From contig CM030333.1 in assembly GCA_017654855.1 (NCBI GenBank), forward strand, positions 4,154,001-4,218,000: a stretch of 64,000 nucleotides of DNA, written 5' to 3'. Within the stretch, counting starts at the first letter, position 1; each line of letters starts with the position of its first letter. The translations under genes and the position numbers were made by a program. Source of the DNA: Podospora anserina. Its lineage: Eukaryota. This document shows, one piece after another, positions 25,224 through 32,435 of the stretch. The notes below the pieces were generated by a model that made no database searches, was not told the DNA's origin, and saw nothing but the letters and a program-made list of their open reading frames with translations.

Positions 25224-25636
25224 TGTGGCTGTAAACTGGAGGGATGGTTGAAGCTATACTCATGTCTGTAAGTGCTGGCTGTTGACGGCGTCACCAATCC
25301 ATCCCCGTGTCGCGACGCAGATAAGGAATTATGGAGTTGCCTTGTGGCTTATCGAGAATTGGCCAATCAGCCATACCCACCCAGTTAAATGGCCGATACT
25401 TCCGCCCCGACTTTGACTGACCGCCGCCGCCCGCCGCGACCCCCTGAACCGTCGCGCTTCTGGAACCTTGCCCAGTCCAGGAATTAATTCCCAAAAAGTT
25501 GCAACTTTTGCGACAACACACCACACCACACCACGCCTCACCACGCCACACCACACCACCATTCACCGTATTTCGCAAAGTTCAACAAAGAAGAATAGGA
25601 AAACAACAACAAAAAACAAACAAAAAAACCGCCAAA

Positions 25637-26059
25637 ATGACAACAATGAACAACTATCGCCCCCCCACGGCAGAGGAAAAACTCACCATGTCTCCCATCG
25701 ACAGGCTGAGCAAGTGGCTGGAGCTCAAGGTTTACCAGCTCGAGGTGACGATGAGCGTGTACATGTTTACGCCGATGGAGAAGTTTATTTTTTGTACGTC
25801 CGGACACACGCACCTCTCCCTCCCGTTGGGTGGTTTGCTAATTGAAGGAAAATGAATGTTAGACTCGATCCTGTTCCTCCTGACCAGCCTGACGCTCATC
25901 GCGACGGTCTTGTATCTCCCCCATCACATCGCCTTCATAGTGGGGAGGGCGTGGTTTTATATGCATGGGGAGGTGCCGGTGGATGCGGTAGAGAAGGTGA
26001 CGAGTTCGACGTTGGGGAAGGTTGCGGAGGTGACGGCTGGGGTTGTGAAGGAGCTCTAA
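25637..26059 (+). CDS. Small subunit of serine palmitoyltransferase-like membrane protein (SPT_ssu-like); intron 25794-25862
   Basis: KWLELKVYQLEVTMSVYMFTPMEKFIF|YSILFLLTSLTLIATVLYLPHH matches the ssSPT pattern (YQ-E...Y...P-EK, TM helix, YLP). Confidence 0.82.
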
Positions 26060-26522
26060 GCTCGTGAAGGACAGGGGCCGGGAATGGTTCAGGGACCTGC
26101 TCGAGACACAGGTTTTCGGTGGCGGTTTTTGGTATGGTGGGCCAAAAGCAGCGATCGGAGGGTCTGGTTGCTGTAGGCCTGGAGGGCTGGGTGATGATAA
26201 GTTGGGGATGGACGACTAATGCGGTTGGGATGTGACAGTAATGATTGGGAATACGGAACGGTCAATTATCGGTGGTGCTGTTGGGTGGTGTACGCAATTC
26301 ACACGACATACATAAGGGGAGAATGGTTGGATTAATTGGGCGTTTTAGGGGCAGGCATAGCAGGCGGTCATATAGTAATTTGGAAGGGGATGAACAGGTG
26401 CATACAGATAGATGCCTTGGACGGCGGTACACATAAACATATCATACCAAACAATAAACTTAACACCACGGATATCAACGTGTTCTATAGTAACACTTTA
26501 ATCATGACTTTTTCATTCACAT

Positions 26523-29065
26523 CTACCATCTAGTCTGAACCTCCACCTCATATATCCTCAACGAACCATCCTCACCCGCAATCGCCAGCTCCCTCTTCTT
26601 CTCATCTTGCTCAGCCGTCTTCGGCCTCCAAGCAAGCTGCACCACCGTCCCCGGCAACCAGAGCCCCTTATCCAACACGGCCTTCCTCACCACCTCCACC
26701 TTTCCCTCTTCAGCAACACCCAAAGTAACAACCATGACCCTCCCCGCCTCGGTCCCCACAGCCAAAACCATCTTGCCCTCTGTTGTCACCTCGGGCAGGA
26801 AATCCACCGCAGTAACCGGCTCCCCCTCCTTCATCTCCCCCCCCAGCCCAAACTCTTTGTTTTCCCCAACCCAAAACCGAACAAGCTTATCCCTCCCCGC
26901 CGTCGCAAAAACCCTTTTTTTCTCCTCAGCAGGCCCCCAGGCACAGTCAAGAATCATCCTCGAATGCCCCTTTTGCATCTGCTGCACAAGCTCATACCCC
27001 GTGCCGCTCCTCCCCCAAACAACCCACTGCCTATCCCTCCCCACGCTCAAAAGCAGCTCATCATCCCCCGAGAACCTCACCCTCGCCACGGTCAGGGAAT
27101 GAGCCTGCAGCGGCGGGCGTAGCTCAGTCCACTTGTCTGTTTCGAACAGCCTAATCACGGCGTGGTTGAGAGACGAGGCTTTGCAGGCTGAGGCGATGAT
27201 TTTCCCGTCGTGGGAGGAGCACAGACAGGAAATCTCATACCCGTGACCGTAAAGCTTTTCCACTTCTGGCCAGAGGGTGTGCCGCGAGAGGTTTTCTTCG
27301 AAGGGGGGGTGGGTGGTTGTTGCTTCGAGGGCGGCCGGGATGGTGAAGTTGCTTTGGGAGAGGCCGCCTTCTTCTTCTTCTTGGGATTCAGGTTGCCGTT
27401 CGGAGGAGGTGTTGTCAATGGCCTTGTTGGACAGACCCAACACTGGCATGTCTGCCGCGTCAGGGGCGAAGGACATGTCGATTTTGGAGTTTGTCAGGTA
27501 AGAAAGCATCTTAGCCACCGCCTTTGGCGCGGTGAACACCCTCATCAGCTTTTCGTCTGCCCCCGAGACGAAGGAGGATGTCGGACCCAAGGTGGCGGTG
27601 CAGTTGAGGTCGTAGCCGTGGATTTGCGGGCGGGACATCTCGTGCCAGGAGCCAGAGGAGGAAGAGTCGGTGCCGTTGCCTGTCCACTGGGCGTGGAGGC
27701 GGGTGGTTTGGTCGGACGAGGTGGACAAGAGGTAGGTGCCATCTTGGGACCAGGAGAGGCCCGTCACGGCGCGGGTGTGGCCCGAGATGGCGTAGGTTTG
27801 CTGCCAGGCGTCGTCGGAGGGGTTGTAATCCCATCGGCGCCAGCTGCCGGTGCGGCCGAGGGTGATGACGGTTGTTCCTGCGGGGGACCATAGGCCTGTC
27901 CAGAAGCCGCCGATGCTGCCTGTTGCTGTTGTGGCGCCCTTTTCGCGGCTGACTTCTCCCAGGCGGGCGCCCGTGATCCAGATGCCGGATTCGGGGTCGG
28001 ATTCCCAGATGGAGAGGGAGTTGTCGGCCGAGGCGGAGAGGAGGAGGAGTTTACCGTCTGCGGTTCGGGACCAGCGGGCCGTGTAGATCCAGTCTTCGTG
28101 TCCGAGCAGCAGGGCTTCGAACATGACGCAGTATTTTGTGCCGCCGGCCGAGATCTTGTGGATTTTGTTTCCTGGTGTCAGGGAGACTGACAGGTCCAGT
28201 CCGGTGGCATTGTTGAGGGCTGAGAGAGCCGTCCCTTGGTGAAGCCTCCAGAGACGAACATACTTGTCTTGACTGGCCGAGGCAAGCAGTAGATCACTCC
28301 CCGCCTCTGTCTTTTCCTTGATGAAATCCAGAGACCGCACCCAGTTTTCATGCCCTGGCAGGGTAGCCTGCAGTGTGAACTCCAAATCTGAAGCACCAGC
28401 TGTGAATATCTGAACCGCATTTGTCGTCCCCACCACAGCCAGCACAATTCCGTTTGCTTCATCATCCAGCGGGCTCAGCGCCAGAGCCAAGGGTATGAAT
28501 TTCTTGGTCGTCTTGACAGACTGGAGAAGCTTGAACGGCTCCTCGTTCGCAGCCGAATTGTGAGCCCATATTCTGAAAGTCGCATCTGCCGCCCCGGTAG
28601 CGAATATCCTCTTCGTCGGAGCCCCAGCAGGCGTCACTCCCAAAGCCGCAATGCAATTGATAGGCTCCGCATGCCCCTCCACAGCCTGCAAATACGAAGC
28701 TGTAGCATCTCGAGGGCTCACGCTCCAGGCACGAACAACCTTGTCGTCTCCTCCGCTGATCAAGATAGTCTTGTCGTCACCCTCGAGCCTGGGGAGAAAC
28801 TTGACGGCTTTGACATGGCCGGTGTGCTGGCTGAGTATGCTTGAGATACCTCTTGGGTTCTGTATACACCATCAGTTTCTTGCTCACACAACCCCTATGT
28901 TAGGGTAGGAAAGAGAAAACATACTTGAGGATTCCACAAACAAACATTCGCATTCGACCCGAAAGCCACCACCCCCTCGGCGCTCCAGTCAGAGGCGGCA
29001 GAGTACCTGTTTGCTCCCGCGGCCAGATAGCTGCTGTCTGCTCTTATCGTCTCTGTGTCGGCCAT
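26523..29065 (-). CDS. ELP2: Elongator complex subunit 2 (WD40); exons 29065-28925 and 28859-26523
   Basis: YLAAGANRYSAASDW at the N-terminus; LASASQDKYVRLW; FEALLLGHEDWIY; WHEMSRPQIHGYDL; SGADEKLMRVF; LWPEVEKLYGHGYE; HSRMILD. Confidence 0.95.
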
Positions 29066-29379
29066 TTTTTTATATAAATTTTTCGTCTCTGTCGTATAGT
29101 GAGAGGCGTGGTTTCACATGAACTGTTTCGAGAAAAGGGAAGGCAGATGTGAGAAATGGAGGACTGTGATTGGTCGAAATGTCAGGGTTGGGAAGGTTTT
29201 TTGGAGGACAGTGAGCAATAAAGTGTGGGGTAGCTTTCTTTTTGAGTGTGAAACCTTGAGAGGGAATGATTCAATTTGATATGATTCAACTTCTGAAGGG
29301 TTGATATTACAACTGGTTTTCACGGTTTTTGTTCTTCATTTTATTTCAACAACTGAGGCTACATAGCAAGATCATCAAA

Positions 29380-29870
29380 ATGGCACCAGAACCAGAGACC
29401 ATGCCCATCTCGGTGGATTTCCTGTAAGCCCCTCTCAGTCTTATTCGGTTACTGGTTTGATATCACCACCACATACCATCTCTCATCATAGAGTTGTTAA
29501 TCATTTCTCATGATACTGACATTCACACAGAGGCGGCCTAGACACCCTCTTCTCCAACAAAACATCCCACACCATCTCCCTCCCCCTCCTCAACCCCTCC
29601 GACTCCTCCCCCGCCAACGTCGGCTTCCTAATCTCATACCTCGTCAAGCACCACCTCAAGCACCCAAGGACAGAATTTTTCGTGCAAGACGATGGTCACT
29701 TGTAAGTGTTCCTGTTTTCCTTTGAACAGGCCGAGCACAACTAACAAACCAGAACACCCGGCATACTGGTCCTCATCAACGAGGCAGACTGGGAACTCGA
29801 AGGGGAGGAAGAATGCGAGCTCAAGGCAGGGGATAAAGTTGTTTTTGTCTCGACCATGCACGGTGGTTAG
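29380..29870 (+). CDS. URM1: Ubiquitin-related modifier 1 (sulfur carrier), 110 aa; exons 29380-29423, 29531-29701, 29753-29870; absent from the ORF track
   Basis: The spliced product reads [15 protein letters not shown]...[48 protein letters not shown], with the Urm1 signature and C-terminal GG; exon lengths sum to 333 nt. Confidence 0.95.
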
Positions 29871-29936
29871 ACCTCAGTTATTTTTAACCAAACACAAGAA
29901 TGATACCCATCCATCAACAAGCACATCCCTTTTCCC

Positions 29937-32435
29937 CTACGCCAGCGAGGAAAACGAATTCCCTCCCCCTCCCTCCGTCCCCCGTCTAGTCCCCATCAAA
30001 TTCTTCATGGTGTTATACATCAACCCCGGCAACCCCCCCTGCCCCACCTCCTCCCCCTCCAACCACCCCAACACTCCCGCCCTGTACTCCTGCCAGCTGA
30101 GTCTCACCCCCCCCCTCCCAGCCAGCCTCACCAAACTCTGCTGCGTCACCGGCCCAGCATGCCTTACCAACAGCCCCCCCTTTTTCATTTCCTTTTCTTC
30201 CAGCCCCCTCACAAACTTGATACTCTGCAGACAAAGCACCGGGTTGTAGCTCAGACCAAAAACAGTCTCGAGCTTTAAATCATCGTCTAAATCTCTGAGA
30301 TACGAGTCCAAAACAGGGACAAGCGATTTCGGTATGCGGCAACCCCTGGCGTTGGCGTCGGGGGAGCCAGAGTCGGATGTTGGTGCGAGGGCGAATGCAC
30401 GTCCCCTCCAGAGGTTGTTGCAGATGTCCATCAGGAAGCCGTTGAAGATGTTGATCTGGGACCATTCTTCCTGTGATGGTTTTCGTTGCTGTTGCTGCGG
30501 GGAGGTCTTCTTGGTTATGACGGTCTCCCAGGCTATTTTATAGACTGTTAGGATGGAGCAGAGGCGGGATAGGACGGTTAGGGAGGGGGAGAAGGCTAGG
30601 TTGTAGACTAGCAAGGGTGGGGGGATGGCGATTGGGATGTGGAGGAGGAGGATGGGGGAGGAGTAGATTCTGCCTGTGGCGGTGTAGAAGTCTAGGATGG
30701 CGAGGGAGGTGGAGATGGAAGGGGAGGATTGGGATAGAGTTAGGCAGAGGGGGTTGACGTGGGTGACGAGGGAGGGGATGGAGGTGACTGGTTGTGATGG
30801 GAGGGAGGAGGTGGGTCGGGAGAGGAGGCGGGTCGTCCAGTTGTTTAGGAGGAGGGTGTAAAAGGTTAGGAGGGCGAGCTGGGATTGGGGGGTGTTGTTG
30901 AGGAGCTTAGATTGGAGGAGGGTGAAGAGGGGGGATAAGTCTGAATGGGTTAGTGACAAGTTGGGTGATTAGGGATGAAGGTGAGGGCATACCGGTAAAG
31001 TCAAGCAAGGGGAGGTAGCTCAACGTCTCGAGGACTATGTCTCGTTTGTCTAACCCGTTCCATGTCTGCAGGAAGCTTTGGAAGAATTCCATCAAAACGG
31101 GAGATAATTCCTGCAGCATGTTAGCATGGAGGAGTTGTGTGGAACAATAGACACAACAAACCTTGGTACTCAAGACATAATCACGAATCACCTCTACCAT
31201 ATCGAGTAGGAATGACGGGTCTGTATCACCGCTCGCCACATCACCCACACACGCCATCAGCCAGTTGCTTATGCGCTGCGAAGCCTCCTGACTGGGCCGC
31301 AGCAACAAAAACTTCTGCAGCAAGGGGTCTGCAAGGACGGCAACCAGCTGCGAGGGCATTTCGATCTTTTCGAGACTGTTGACAAACCCCTCGGCACTGT
31401 CAAACTCCTCGAGTGTCACCGAGGTTTCGTGGGCATGTAGCGTATGAACGTTGGGAACAAGAGCTCTCGCCCCCTTCAACCGGCGTCCCAAAGCATGACT
31501 GACAGCAAAGCCGTTTCTGGTCCCGTCGTCTTCATGCCGGTCGAAATGCTGTTGCTGAATCTCGTTGAGCCGCTCCCTCCACTGGACATCTGGGTGTTTA
31601 AAAGCAGCCGCACGTCCCTTGGTGATGTCGCCCACGATAATCTCTGGGTAGTAGTTCTTGAAGACCCTGAGCAGACCAGTCAAGTTGGGGTCACCGCCAG
31701 TCTGTCGCGAAAGAGCCAGTCTAATCCATGATTATGTCAGTCCTGGTCAGTCGCAAAATACGAGGTATACGATCGCTCACTCACATGGTCTGAATCCTAA
31801 ATGGTCGCACATGCTTCCGCCTGGTGATAAGCGCCAGAAGGTGACACAGCTGCGGTCTGTGCGAGGGCAAGTGACCATGGTCAGTAAGACGAGATCCCAA
31901 ACATCATCTGAACCGAGTTTTTCGACGTACCTGATGGCAGCCGAATCGAGAAGGTTGAACAAGACGGCGTATGTCTGTGACAAGATGGTTGGGTTCTGCA
32001 ACAGGTGGTACACCATCACCAGCCATTTCAGGAACAGGCTCTGAAGGGGAAACGATGGCTTGAGGTGGCCGTGGCCCAAGGCACCGACGATTCGTAAAAG
32101 GACTTCATCGCTGACTTTTCCCAAAGGATAGAGGTTGCGGGTGATTGCCGACAGACTGGCCTGGTCAAGGTGATTGTGTTGGGTTAACAAGTCGACCAGA
32201 CGGATGAGGTCATCTGGAAGAGCGCCTCGGTCATAGAGAAGTGATGTGGTCTTTTCGACTGTGGGTTTGATGCTTGTTTGGCGTCGTTTGGCCGGGATTT
32301 TGGATGCTGCCTGCGAGTTAGTGAGCGAACAATGTAATTGCGAATTATGCATGCAATCATGAAAGACACCATACCTGTTTCCAAGTCGTCCAAAAGCTGG
32401 TCAAGCCGGTCGCCTAGTGGAGGGGACAAACTCAT
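29937..32435 (-). CDS. mis6: Inner kinetochore protein Mis6/CENP-I (Ctf3), multi-exon
   Basis: HLDQASLSAITRNLYP, FLKWLVMVY, LFNLLD...IRPQLCHLLALITRRKHVRPFRIQ, GLLRVFKNYYPEIIV, LEKIEMPSQLVAVLADPLLQKFL, FNGFLMDICNNLWRGRAF; donors at 32374, 31930 and further GT-AG introns. Confidence 0.88.

What the first reader, a model, noticed from the sequence alone, without database searches (positions are those of the whole stretch)
26523..29870. ELP2 and URM1 form a head-to-head pair: both arms of tRNA wobble-U34 modification on one 314-bp promoter
Seen: the ELP2 ATG (29065, minus) and a three-exon URM1 (ATG 29380, plus; missed by the ORF track) are separated by only 314 bp. Established: Elongator starts the cm5/mcm5 side chain and Urm1 donates sulfur for s2 of the same mcm5s2U34 nucleoside in tRNA-Lys/Gln/Glu. 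Inference: a shared bidirectional promoter could co-regulate the two branches, making a minimal tRNA-modification cluster. I do not know whether this linkage has been described.
Basis: partly seen in the sequence, partly recalled or inferred. Interest (0 to 1): 0.7.

Follow-up and report, generated by a model that had tools for sequence, protein, structure and literature searches.

The report
Conserved ELP2-URM1 head-to-head gene pair
Two genes that make the two halves of one tRNA wobble-base modification sit back to back on a 314-base shared control region in Podospora, and the same pairing is kept in many other filamentous ascomycetes, which hints, without proving it, that the two pathways are switched on together.

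Summary
ELP2 (minus strand, 2 exons, ATG 29065) and URM1 (plus strand, 3 exons, ATG 29380) lie head to head, 314 bp apart. All three introns are confirmed by spliced RNA contigs from 4 studies. Both models are identical to public Podospora anserina proteins PODANS_2_11230 and PODANS_2_11240, so neither gene is new.

The new result is conservation. ELP2 and URM1 carry consecutive locus tags or accessions in 24 named Sordariomycete species. In 80 metagenome URM1 loci (55 clusters), 29 clusters have ELP2 head to head with URM1. Estimated spacing is 144-383 bp, median about 188. These include Pleosporales-like and Eurotiales-like lineages. Flanking genes are not conserved.

The pair is absent in 14 clusters, among them Basidiomycota-like and Chaetothyriales-like loci, and in the named Orbiliomycete Dactylellina.

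Co-regulation remains untested. No promoter motif is shared across classes, though a CCAAT box recurs in the three Sordariomycete sequences. None of five literature searches for the linkage found a description of it.

Verdict: a real, old, pathway-coherent divergent gene pair, and a new member of a known kind. Interest is moderate.

The parts
26523..28859 (-). ELP2 exon 2, stop codon included; encodes residues 48-825 and both WD40 propellers
   Evidence: open frame and model. (WD40 families). (yeast Elp2 5m2n, E = 1.1e-147). (model identical to P0248, PODANS_2_11230).
28860..28924 (-). ELP2 intron, 65 nt, GTATGT...ACAG on the minus strand
   Evidence: Spliced contigs skip 28860-28924 in 4 of 4 runs (table 5).
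28925..29065 (-). ELP2 exon 1, 47 codons, ATG at 29065
   Evidence: The N-terminus matches annotated ELP2 of Podospora relatives.
29066..29379 (.). 314-bp ATG-to-ATG divergent intergenic region, 38% G+C; holds both 5' leaders and the putative shared promoter
   Evidence: length and composition. (transcribed parts).
29066..29148 (-). Minimum ELP2 5' leader. RNA contigs run to 29072, 29142, 29142 and 29148. Contig ends are only a weak hint of the start site.
   Evidence: table 8.
29149..29245 (.). About 100 bp not covered by any laid RNA contig; candidate core of the bidirectional promoter (inferred)
   Evidence: table 8. Lack of cover is weak evidence.
29166..29174 (-). CCAAT box (GTGATTGGT on the plus strand), about 100 bp upstream of the ELP2 ATG. 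TGATTGG also occurs about 90-120 bp from the ELP2 start in the two Sordariomycete-like loci L024 and L063.
   Evidence: position; a single match in the window is not itself unusual. (printed intergenic sequences of L024 and L063). Function is inferred.
29246..29379 (+). Minimum URM1 5' leader; RNA contigs begin at 29246, 29250 and 29274
   Evidence: table 8.
29380..29423 (+). URM1 exon 1 ([14 protein letters not shown] + 2 nt)
   Evidence: (model identical to P0121).
29424..29530 (+). URM1 intron 1, 107 nt, GT..AG
   Evidence: Spliced contigs in 3 of 4 runs.
29531..29701 (+). URM1 exon 2
   Evidence: PF09138, 30.3 bits. (100% identical to PODANS_2_11240).
29702..29752 (+). URM1 intron 2, 51 nt, GT..AG
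   Evidence: Spliced contigs in 4 of 4 runs.
29753..29870 (+). URM1 exon 3 with the C-terminal ...HGG and the stop codon
   Evidence: PF09138, 59.3 bits. (Urm1 chains 6yuc_G and 7q5n_G).

Best explanation
This is an old, divergently transcribed gene pair. ELP2 encodes the WD40 scaffold subunit of Elongator, which starts the cm5/mcm5 side chain on wobble U34. URM1 encodes the ubiquitin-like sulfur carrier for the 2-thio group of the same mcm5s2U34 nucleoside. The two genes are read outward from one very short, A+T-rich control region.

Shown:
- both genes, their splicing and the 314-bp spacing;
- transcribed leaders that leave at most about 100 bp between them;
- retention of the head-to-head arrangement, at about 140-380 bp spacing, in Sordariomycetes and in Dothideomycete-like and Eurotiales-like lineages while the flanking genes change.

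Inferred:
- The two genes share one nucleosome-free bidirectional promoter, which in Sordariomycetes includes a CCAAT box.
- Their transcription is therefore coupled.
- This coupling, which keeps the supply of the two branches of one tRNA modification in step, is why the pair has survived the gene-order scrambling typical of filamentous ascomycetes.
For: Anatomy and identity.

Splicing and leaders. All 3 introns appear in spliced contigs from 4 studies. ELP2 contigs end at 29142-29148 and URM1 contigs start at 29246-29274.

Named genomes with consecutive tags or accessions for ELP2 and URM1, 24 species in all:
- 10 species: six Podospora species, Apiosordaria backusii, Cladorrhinum sp. PSN259, Coniochaeta sp. 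2T2.1 and Lasiosphaeria hispida.
- Humicola hyalothermophila (VTK26DRAFT_8072/8071) and Fusarium nematophilum (ACJ41O_013484/83).
- 12 further Fusarium species read together. Examples are F. graminearum KAK6707845/46 and F. pseudograminearum NXS19_012477/78.

DNA-level evidence:
- A URM1-alignment scan of metagenome contigs gave 80 loci.
- 43 of the 80 loci have ELP2 on the opposite strand directly upstream of URM1.
- After collapsing to 55 clusters, 29 clusters are positive. 14 have at least 1 kb upstream and no ELP2, 2 have 600-999 bp upstream and none, and 10 are too short to tell.
- The upstream gene is truly ELP2 in a Pleosporales-like locus (L005, E = 1.5e-184 to yeast Elp2) and in a Eurotiales-like locus (L058, E = 5.8e-164).
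- Estimated ATG-ATG spacing in 28 representatives is 144-383 bp, median about 188.

Class placement by a URM1 tree:
- Positive loci sit with Penicillium, Aspergillus and Rasamsonia (SH-aLRT 81-88).
- Others sit with Pleosporales (82-97), Lepidopterella (85), Zalaria (85) and Sordariomycetes (96-98).

Internal control:
- Of 15 positive clusters with at least 2 kb downstream of URM1, none has Podospora's downstream neighbour Mis6.
- Of 12 with at least 1.5 kb beyond the ELP2 3' end, only L024 has SPT-ssu and RF-1.

Functional link: the abstract of PMC4352028 states that Elongator and Urm1/Uba4/Ncs2/Ncs6 act on the same mcm5s2U34. It says loss of either is tolerated and contrasts this with combining both defects (abstract only).

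TGATTGG lies about 90-120 bp from the ELP2 start in all 3 Sordariomycete intergenic sequences examined.
Against: Co-expression was never measured. The laid runs are contigs, which cannot rank genes.

No sequence motif is shared by the intergenic regions of different classes beyond shuffles:
- The best exact 6-mer is in 11 of 21 sequences against a shuffle maximum of 10.
- The best 8-mer with one mismatch is in 13 of 21 against a shuffle maximum of 12.
If regulation is shared, its elements have turned over.

The pair has been lost or was never formed in several lineages without obvious harm:
- 14 of 55 clusters lack it. These include a Chaetothyriales-like locus (L054), a Fusarium-like cluster (L003/L007/L015) and four Basidiomycota-like loci.
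- In Dactylellina haptotyla, URM1 H072_5014 and ELP2 H072_4186 lie on different contigs.
- Baker's yeast has them on different chromosomes (YGR200C and YIL008W, recalled).

Very short spacers are known in general to protect divergent pairs from rearrangement whatever their function (recalled: Poyatos and Hurst, yeast gene order).

Limits of the evidence:
- The CCAAT observation is post hoc and rests on 3 related sequences.
- Class labels of metagenome loci rest on a 123-column URM1 tree with many unresolved forks.
- Consecutive accessions show adjacency, not orientation.
- The clusters are not phylogenetically independent.
- The 80 loci are the 80 most Podospora-like of 459 relatives found.
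Confidence: 0.55

Rival explanations
1. Passive conservation. The pair arose by chance once in an early filamentous ascomycete. It has persisted only because a spacer of about 150-400 bp packed with two promoters and two leaders leaves almost no place for a harmless breakpoint. Any co-expression is a mechanical by-product with no selective value, and the shared pathway is a coincidence.
For: Spacers are extremely short in all 28 measured lineages, at 144-383 bp. No cross-class motif exceeds shuffles. The pair is dispensable as a pair, being split in 14 of 55 clusters and in Dactylellina. General knowledge (recalled) holds that intergenic distance is the strongest predictor of adjacency retention in yeasts.
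Against: Suppose retention has nothing to do with function. The chance that URM1's retained partner is one of the roughly 20-25 genes of its own modification pathway, out of about 10,000 genes, is then about 0.2-0.3%. This is my estimate, not a computation. It must also be discounted for the many neighbour pairs a reader could have flagged. Both flanking neighbours were lost while this junction was kept.
Confidence: 0.35
2. Coupling beyond transcription. The linkage reflects a direct protein-level relation, for example Elp2 as a docking site or urmylation target that hands tRNA from Elongator to the thiolation machinery. On this view gene neighbourhood predicts a physical interaction.
For: Only the conserved neighbourhood itself. 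There is also a general precedent that Urm1-like genes are fused or linked to tRNA-modification genes in archaea. That precedent comes from earlier AI notes and was not checked here.
Against: Only ELP2, not other Elongator or thiolation genes, lies nearby. The pair is split in many fungi that make the same nucleoside.
Confidence: 0.05
3. Lineage-restricted chance adjacency with no wider meaning.
For: Adjacency in a single genome is expected by chance for some pathway pairs.
Against: The pair is adjacent in 24 named species of three Sordariomycete orders. It is head to head in 29 of 55 metagenome clusters, including Dothideomycete-like and Eurotiales-like ones.
Confidence: 0.02

Closest known systems
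Bidirectional (divergent) promoter gene pairs, defined as head-to-head genes with TSSs no more than 1 kb apart (definition seen in the abstracts of PMC2648788 and PMC2670823)
   Same: Opposite strands, head to head, 314 bp between start codons. RNA contig ends lie only about 100-130 bp apart. The spacer is A+T-rich.
   Different: Shared regulation has not been shown here. [quoted passage not shown] Geometry alone therefore does not prove coupling.
Classical pathway-coherent divergent pairs in fungi: niiA-niaD (nitrate assimilation, Aspergillus nidulans), GAL1-GAL10 (yeast), histone H2A-H2B and H3-H4 pairs (all recalled, no call)
   Same: Two genes of one pathway or complex are read outward from one control region, and the pairing is conserved across species.
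   Different: For those pairs the shared cis elements and regulators are known from experiments. Here the spacer is far shorter than niiA-niaD (about 1.2 kb, recalled). No regulator is known, and the products belong to two different enzyme systems that converge on one nucleoside.
ELP2 and URM1 of Saccharomyces cerevisiae (YGR200C and YIL008W, names recalled); Elp2 structures 5m2n and 4xfv; Urm1 structures 2pko and 2qjl
   Same: Orthologous proteins: ELP2 at E = 1.1e-147 and URM1 exon 3 at E = 2.6e-10. They have the same roles in mcm5s2U34 synthesis (abstract of PMC4352028).
   Different: In yeast the two genes are unlinked (recalled). The linkage is a feature of filamentous ascomycetes.
Archaeal Urm1-like genes fused or adjacent to tRNA-modification genes (Ubl-Cgi121 fusions, Makarova and Koonin 2010), as reported in earlier AI notes of this scan
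   Same: A Urm1-type sulfur carrier or modifier is genomically tied to a tRNA-modification component.
   Different: The domain of life, the partner (KEOPS, t6A) and the mechanism (operon or fusion, not a divergent promoter) all differ. These notes were not checked here.

Membership tests
Elongator subunit 2 (ELP2) | Full-length similarity to characterised Elp2, best hit among solved structures | tested here: met
   5m2n_A and 4xfv_A (yeast Elp2) at E = 1.1e-147, query 1-771 against chain 47-784. Mouse and human ELP2 follow. The best non-Elp2 WD40 chain is at E = 2.6e-25; homologues are named Elongator complex protein 2.
Elongator subunit 2 (ELP2) | Two seven-bladed WD40 propellers | tested here: inconclusive
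   WD40 repeats and many beta-propeller families are spread over residues 5-775 of exon 2. No structure was predicted and blades were not counted.
Elongator subunit 2 (ELP2) | Assembles into Elongator and is needed for cm5/mcm5 U34 | not testable with these tools
   Requires biochemistry or genetics.
Urm1 (ubiquitin-related modifier 1, PF09138) | Pfam Urm1 match above the curated cut-off | tested here: met
   exon 2 scores 30.3 bits and exon 3 scores 59.3 bits against a cut-off of 21.8. Together they cover profile positions 8-96 of 96.
Urm1 (ubiquitin-related modifier 1, PF09138) | C-terminal Gly-Gly that is thiocarboxylated | tested here: met
   the protein ends ...STMHGG*. H108, G109 and G110 are invariant in 78 URM1 sequences. 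Thiocarboxylation itself is not testable.
Urm1 (ubiquitin-related modifier 1, PF09138) | Beta-grasp fold | not tested
   No model was built. There is sequence similarity to solved Urm1 chains.
Bidirectional-promoter gene pair | Head-to-head genes on opposite strands with transcription starts under 1 kb apart | tested here: met
   314 bp between ATGs; the inner ends of RNA contigs are at 29142-29148 and 29246-29274. Contig ends are only hints of start sites.
Bidirectional-promoter gene pair | Shared cis element driving both directions, or co-expression | not testable with these tools
   Contigs cannot rank expression. Needs a reporter assay or an expression compendium. The CCAAT box at 29166-29174 is a candidate only.
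Evolutionarily conserved gene pair (microsynteny) | Same neighbours and orientation in distant lineages while flanks differ | tested here: met
   (24 named species). (29 of 55 clusters, 43 of 80 loci). (flanks not conserved). (Dothideomycete-like and Eurotiales-like placement and ELP2 identity).
Functional gene cluster (three or more adjacent genes of one pathway) | Further tRNA-modification genes next to the pair | tested here: not met
   the neighbours within about 7 kb are Mis6/CENP-I, GNAT, SPT small-subunit-like, an RF-1 domain gene and an actin-like gene; no tRNA and no Rfam RNA.

The most novel reading that the evidence does not exclude
The ELP2-URM1 divergent pair is a selectively maintained regulatory unit that dates to before the split of Sordariomycetes, Dothideomycetes and Eurotiomycetes. 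That split is several hundred million years old by recalled estimates. A single promoter of about 100-200 bp would keep the side-chain branch (Elongator) and the sulfur branch (Urm1) of mcm5s2U34 synthesis in fixed proportion. This would be a eukaryotic, operon-like solution for balancing two halves of one tRNA modification. Lineages that split the pair (Chaetothyriales-like, Orbiliomycetes, yeasts, basidiomycetes) should then show looser coupling of the two modifications.
Probability: 0.35. Interest if true: 0.6.

Novelty: new member of a known kind. Interest (0 to 1): 0.45.

Why it matters
How cells keep the two independent branches of wobble-uridine modification in step is not settled. These branches are Elongator for mcm5 and Urm1/Uba4/Ncs2/Ncs6 for s2. 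In the abstract of PMC4352028, loss of either branch is tolerated and this is contrasted with combining both defects.

A promoter-sharing pair kept across classes of filamentous fungi offers a concrete, testable handle on this question. One short DNA segment could be mutated, split or swapped, and the mcm5U, s2U and mcm5s2U ratios read out.

It also adds a clean, pathway-coherent example to the debate on why divergent gene pairs are conserved, whether through selection for co-expression or through lack of safe breakpoints. Nature has already provided the controls, in lineages where the pair is broken.

It does not reveal a new gene, fold or mechanism.

Tried and rejected
- Whole-genome search: no genome is held for this window, so synteny in the organism's own relatives could not be scanned directly.
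- Earlier findings by place, words and sequence gave nothing. The search for 'URM1' alone gave only archaeal notes.
- Literature on the linkage:
  - Nothing for urm1+elp2+'bidirectional promoter' (13), urm1+elongator+'gene order' (47), urm1+elp2+synteny (48), the two full protein names (55) or the Podospora locus tags (67).
  - urm1+elongator+'divergently transcribed' returned only an S. pombe dph3/msh3 paper (49, listing only).
  - urm1+elp2+'filamentous fungi' returned one unrelated paper (35, listing only).
  - Supplements were not searched, and subscription journals are not in the library. 'Not described' therefore means not found in these searches.
- RNA runs: no listed holder is on record as RNA. 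The four runs laid nevertheless contain spliced contigs. Depth figures were not used to compare the two genes.
- Promoter motif shared by all lineages:
  - The first k-mer search picked up URM1 exon-1 coding sequence, because the slices ran to exon 2.
  - After start codons were predicted, exact k-mers and one-mismatch 8-mers barely exceeded shuffles.
  - Class-level elements were seen by eye only: TGATTGG in the Sordariomycete sequences and TCGCGCTAG..CTCGCTTAG in Dothideomycete-like loci.
- Named ELP2 outside Sordariomycetes:
  - 150 representatives were at most 57% identical to any locus.
  - Ten were looked up and four carried names.
  - Only Dactylellina could be paired with a named URM1. 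That pairing gave the one named negative.
- Suspected loss of the pair in Fusarium, raised by cluster L003/L007/L015: rejected for Fusarium itself, since 13 named Fusarium species keep it. That cluster is some other lineage.
- UCH genes near URM1 in L015 and in L057/L065 are not orthologous between the two groups. This is a coincidence.
- URM1 tree: the careful search did not finish. The quick tree has 47 of 97 inner forks open and a long-branch artefact joining Podospora to an unplaced group.
- ESM Atlas gave only 'Ascomycota' for the unplaced group's ELP2.
- Rfam and tRNA scans of the region found nothing.
- No structure or complex prediction was run, because no binding claim is made.
- Searches failed on frame or length and were corrected.
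Full report
**1. What is in the window**

Reading 26000-30600 and translating all frames gives two genes.

ELP2 lies on the minus strand:
- Exon 1 is 28925-29065, with the ATG at 29065.
- A 65-nt intron spans 28860-28924 (GTATGT...ACAG).
- Exon 2 is 26523-28859. The protein is 825 aa.

URM1 lies on the plus strand:
- The exons are 29380-29423, 29531-29701 and 29753-29870.
- The introns are 107 and 51 nt.
- The protein is 110 aa and ends ...STMHGG.

The start codons are 314 bp apart (29066-29379). This spacer has 38% G+C against 53.6% for the window.

ELP2 exon 2 matches yeast Elp2 structures at E = 1.1e-147 over nearly the whole chain. The best non-Elp2 WD40 chain is at 2.6e-25. URM1 exons 2 and 3 pass the Pfam Urm1 cut-off, and exon 3 matches solved Urm1 chains.

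**2. Neither gene is new**

The spliced URM1 model is letter-identical to P0121, 'PODANS_2_11240 [Podospora anserina S mat+]'. The ELP2 model is identical to P0248, 'PODANS_2_11230'. The window is therefore P. anserina chromosome 2 or an identical strain. URM1 was missed only by an ORF list, because its exons are short.

**3. Transcripts**

No run is on record as RNA. Contigs of four runs from four studies are nevertheless spliced exactly at the three predicted introns: ELP2 in 4 of 4 runs, URM1 intron 1 in 3 of 4, and URM1 intron 2 in 4 of 4.

ELP2 contigs extend upstream to 29072, 29142, 29142 and 29148. URM1 contigs begin at 29246, 29250 and 29274. Contig ends are only weak hints of start sites. 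They leave at most about 100-130 bp between the two transcribed regions.

A CCAAT box (GTGATTGGT, 29166-29174) lies in that gap.

No Rfam family or tRNA is present.

**4. Is the adjacency restricted to this lineage? No.**

*(a) Named genomes.* GenBank accessions and locus tags of ELP2 and URM1 are consecutive in 24 Sordariomycete species from Sordariales, Coniochaetales and Hypocreales:
- Ten species appear: six Podospora species, Apiosordaria backusii, Cladorrhinum sp. PSN259, Coniochaeta sp. 2T2.1 and Lasiosphaeria hispida.
- Twelve further Fusarium species come read.

Eight more species share only the contig length for the two genes, a weaker sign. Consecutive numbers show that no annotated gene lies between the two. 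They do not show orientation.

*(b) DNA.* An alignment of 78 URM1 proteins was used to scan metagenome contigs. Of 492 pattern matches, 459 encoded a relative, and the 80 best were kept.
- tblastn with five Sordariomycete ELP2 proteins found ELP2 on the opposite strand directly upstream of URM1 in 43 of the 80 loci.
- The loci collapse to 55 clusters at 97% or more nucleotide identity over URM1.
- Of these, 29 are head to head with ELP2. Fourteen have at least 1 kb upstream and no ELP2 anywhere in the locus. Two have 600-999 bp upstream and none, and ten are too short to tell.
- The negatives are genuine. Their upstream genes are a cullin (L006, L008), a cyclophilin-domain protein (L043), a mitochondrial carrier and a UCH (L015), UCH or RPL13e (L057, L065), DnaJ (L067), and RPS30 or LYR (L080).

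*(c) Who are they?* Named URM1 sequences served as anchors.
- Best-hit identities and a quick URM1 tree place positive loci with Penicillium, Aspergillus and Rasamsonia (L020, L027, L058; support 81-88).
- Others fall with Pleosporales (L005, L016, L028, L040, L061; 82-97), Lepidopterella (L055, L056, L062; 85), Zalaria (L036, L075; 85) and Sordariomycetes (L024, L063; 96-98).
- Negative loci fall with Exophiala and Knufia (L054), with Basidiomycota (L067, L071, L077, L080; 95), near Fusarium (L015) and on a long branch with Trichodelitschia (L057, L065).
- The tree has only 123 columns and SH-aLRT support, and many forks are open. These are class-level leads, not firm placements.
- An unplaced Ascomycota group with intron-less URM1 is mostly positive. 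L018, L025, L041, L049, L050 and L053 are positive, while L023 and L043 are negative.
- The upstream gene is truly ELP2 in L005 (E = 1.5e-184 to yeast Elp2) and in L058 (E = 5.8e-164).
- One named negative exists. In Dactylellina haptotyla (Orbiliomycetes), URM1 is H072_5014 on a contig of 88,003 bp and ELP2 is H072_4186 on a contig of 78,960 bp.
- In baker's yeast the genes are on different chromosomes (recalled).

*(d) Spacing.* Start codons were predicted heuristically: the in-frame ATG nearest the alignment start for ELP2, and an M...[IVL]x[IVL][ED]F exon-1 pattern for URM1. By this method the ATG-ATG distance in 28 representatives is 144-383 bp, median about 188 (with L063 corrected). Podospora's 314 bp is at the long end.

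*(e) Control.* The flanks are not conserved.
- Of 15 positive clusters with at least 2 kb downstream of URM1, none carries Podospora's downstream neighbour Mis6/CENP-I.
- Of 12 with at least 1.5 kb beyond the ELP2 3' end, only the Sordariomycete-like L024 carries SPT-ssu and RF-1.
- Mis6 evolves fast, so its absence is the weaker half of this control.

**5. What it most likely is**

The geometry, the tiny A+T-rich spacer and the transcribed leaders fit a bidirectional promoter. The survival of just this junction while the neighbours change also fits.

The two products act on the same nucleoside. Elongator makes the mcm5 side chain, and Urm1 with Uba4 and Ncs2/Ncs6 delivers the 2-thio group. 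Single defects are tolerated, which the abstract of PMC4352028 contrasts with combining both (abstract only; also the abstract of PMC4294674).

I therefore favour a reading with confidence 0.55. The pair is kept because one shared control region ties the expression of the two branches together.

What is shown is anatomy, splicing and conservation. What is inferred is the single nucleosome-free region, the coupling and the selection.

**6. Against this reading, and the main rival**

- Expression coupling was not measured.
- No motif is shared across classes beyond shuffles. Only class-level elements appear, and they were found post hoc. TGATTGG lies about 90-120 bp from the ELP2 start in Podospora, L024 and L063. 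A TCGCGCTAG..CTCGCTTAG element occurs in several Dothideomycete-like loci.
- The pair is broken in a third of the informative clusters.
- Very short spacers protect divergent pairs regardless of function (recalled).
- Many yeast divergent pairs are differentially regulated (abstract of PMC4551913).

The rival, passive conservation, gets 0.35. A protein-level link between Elp2 and Urm1 gets 0.05. Lineage-restricted chance is refuted, at 0.02.

**7. Comparison with what is known, and novelty**

It works like the classical pathway-coherent divergent pairs: niiA-niaD, GAL1-GAL10 and the histone pairs (all recalled). It meets the structural definition of a bidirectional pair. It is not a gene cluster, because the neighbours are unrelated.

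Five searches of the paper library for the linkage found no description of it. A sixth search, for the Podospora locus tags, found none either. Supplements and subscription journals were not covered.

I rate it a new member of a known kind, with moderate interest (0.45). It is a neat, testable handle on how the two halves of mcm5s2U34 synthesis are balanced, and a good case for the selection-versus-constraint debate on divergent pairs. It is not a new gene, fold or mechanism.

Noticed in passing
window 29266-29304 (+) and 29114-29119 (-): The URM1 5' leader carries a 12-codon upstream ORF (ATG 29266 to TGA 29302-29304). RNA contigs that start at 29246 and 29250 cover it. The ELP2 leader carries a minimal ATG-TGA upstream ORF on the minus strand at 29119-29114. 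Conservation was not examined.
   Followed up: no
window 29870-29937: The URM1 stop codon (29868-29870) and the end of the convergent Mis6/CENP-I-like frame (29937, minus strand) are only 66 bp apart. One RNA contig (run X2) runs unbroken from 29274 to 30600 across both genes. The 3' ends probably overlap.
   Followed up: partly
window 25448-26472: A small gene downstream of ELP2 resembles the small subunit of serine palmitoyltransferase (PF11779). It lies under RNA contigs with much higher word depth (190-996) than its neighbours. Only the Sordariomycete-like locus L024 keeps it next to ELP2.
   Followed up: partly
L006:3251-5677 and L008:1020-3326 (also L012): In one unplaced ascomycete-like lineage, the gene head to head with URM1 is a cullin instead of ELP2. 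The ubiquitin-like modifier there sits beside a ubiquitin-ligase scaffold.
   Followed up: partly
Coniochaeta sp. 2T2.1 proteins P0129/P0109 and P0255/P0092: This genome holds two copies of the pair. One is URM1 KAB5575716 with ELP2 KAB5575717 on a 3,963,679-bp contig. The other is a second URM1 (KAB5563215) and a second ELP2 that share a 2,864,334-bp contig. The pair seems to have been duplicated as a unit.
   Followed up: no
L016, L028, L040, L046, L055, L061 intergenic regions: An element of about 25 bp (GATTTCT.T.GCGCTAG..TCGCTTAG) recurs about 50-90 bp from the ELP2 start in Pleosporales-like and related Dothideomycete-like loci. It was seen by eye. Only the 8-mer CTAAGCGA was counted, in 4 of 21 sequences.
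   Followed up: partly
L018, L025, L031, L041, L049, L050, L053, L060, L051, L034, L043, L072, L023: A distinct intron-less URM1 type (...EGEGACEL..VVFVSTLHGG) forms its own group. No named URM1 sits with it except Podospora, whose join is flagged as a long-branch artefact. Its ELP2 scores as Ascomycota in the Atlas. Most members keep the ELP2 pairing.
   Followed up: partly
Fusarium URM1-like proteins (for example P0229, P0236, P0238): Several Fusarium species carry a second, more divergent URM1-like protein (38-42% identity, 123-144 aa) beside the canonical one. This may be a paralogue. Its neighbours were not examined.
   Followed up: no
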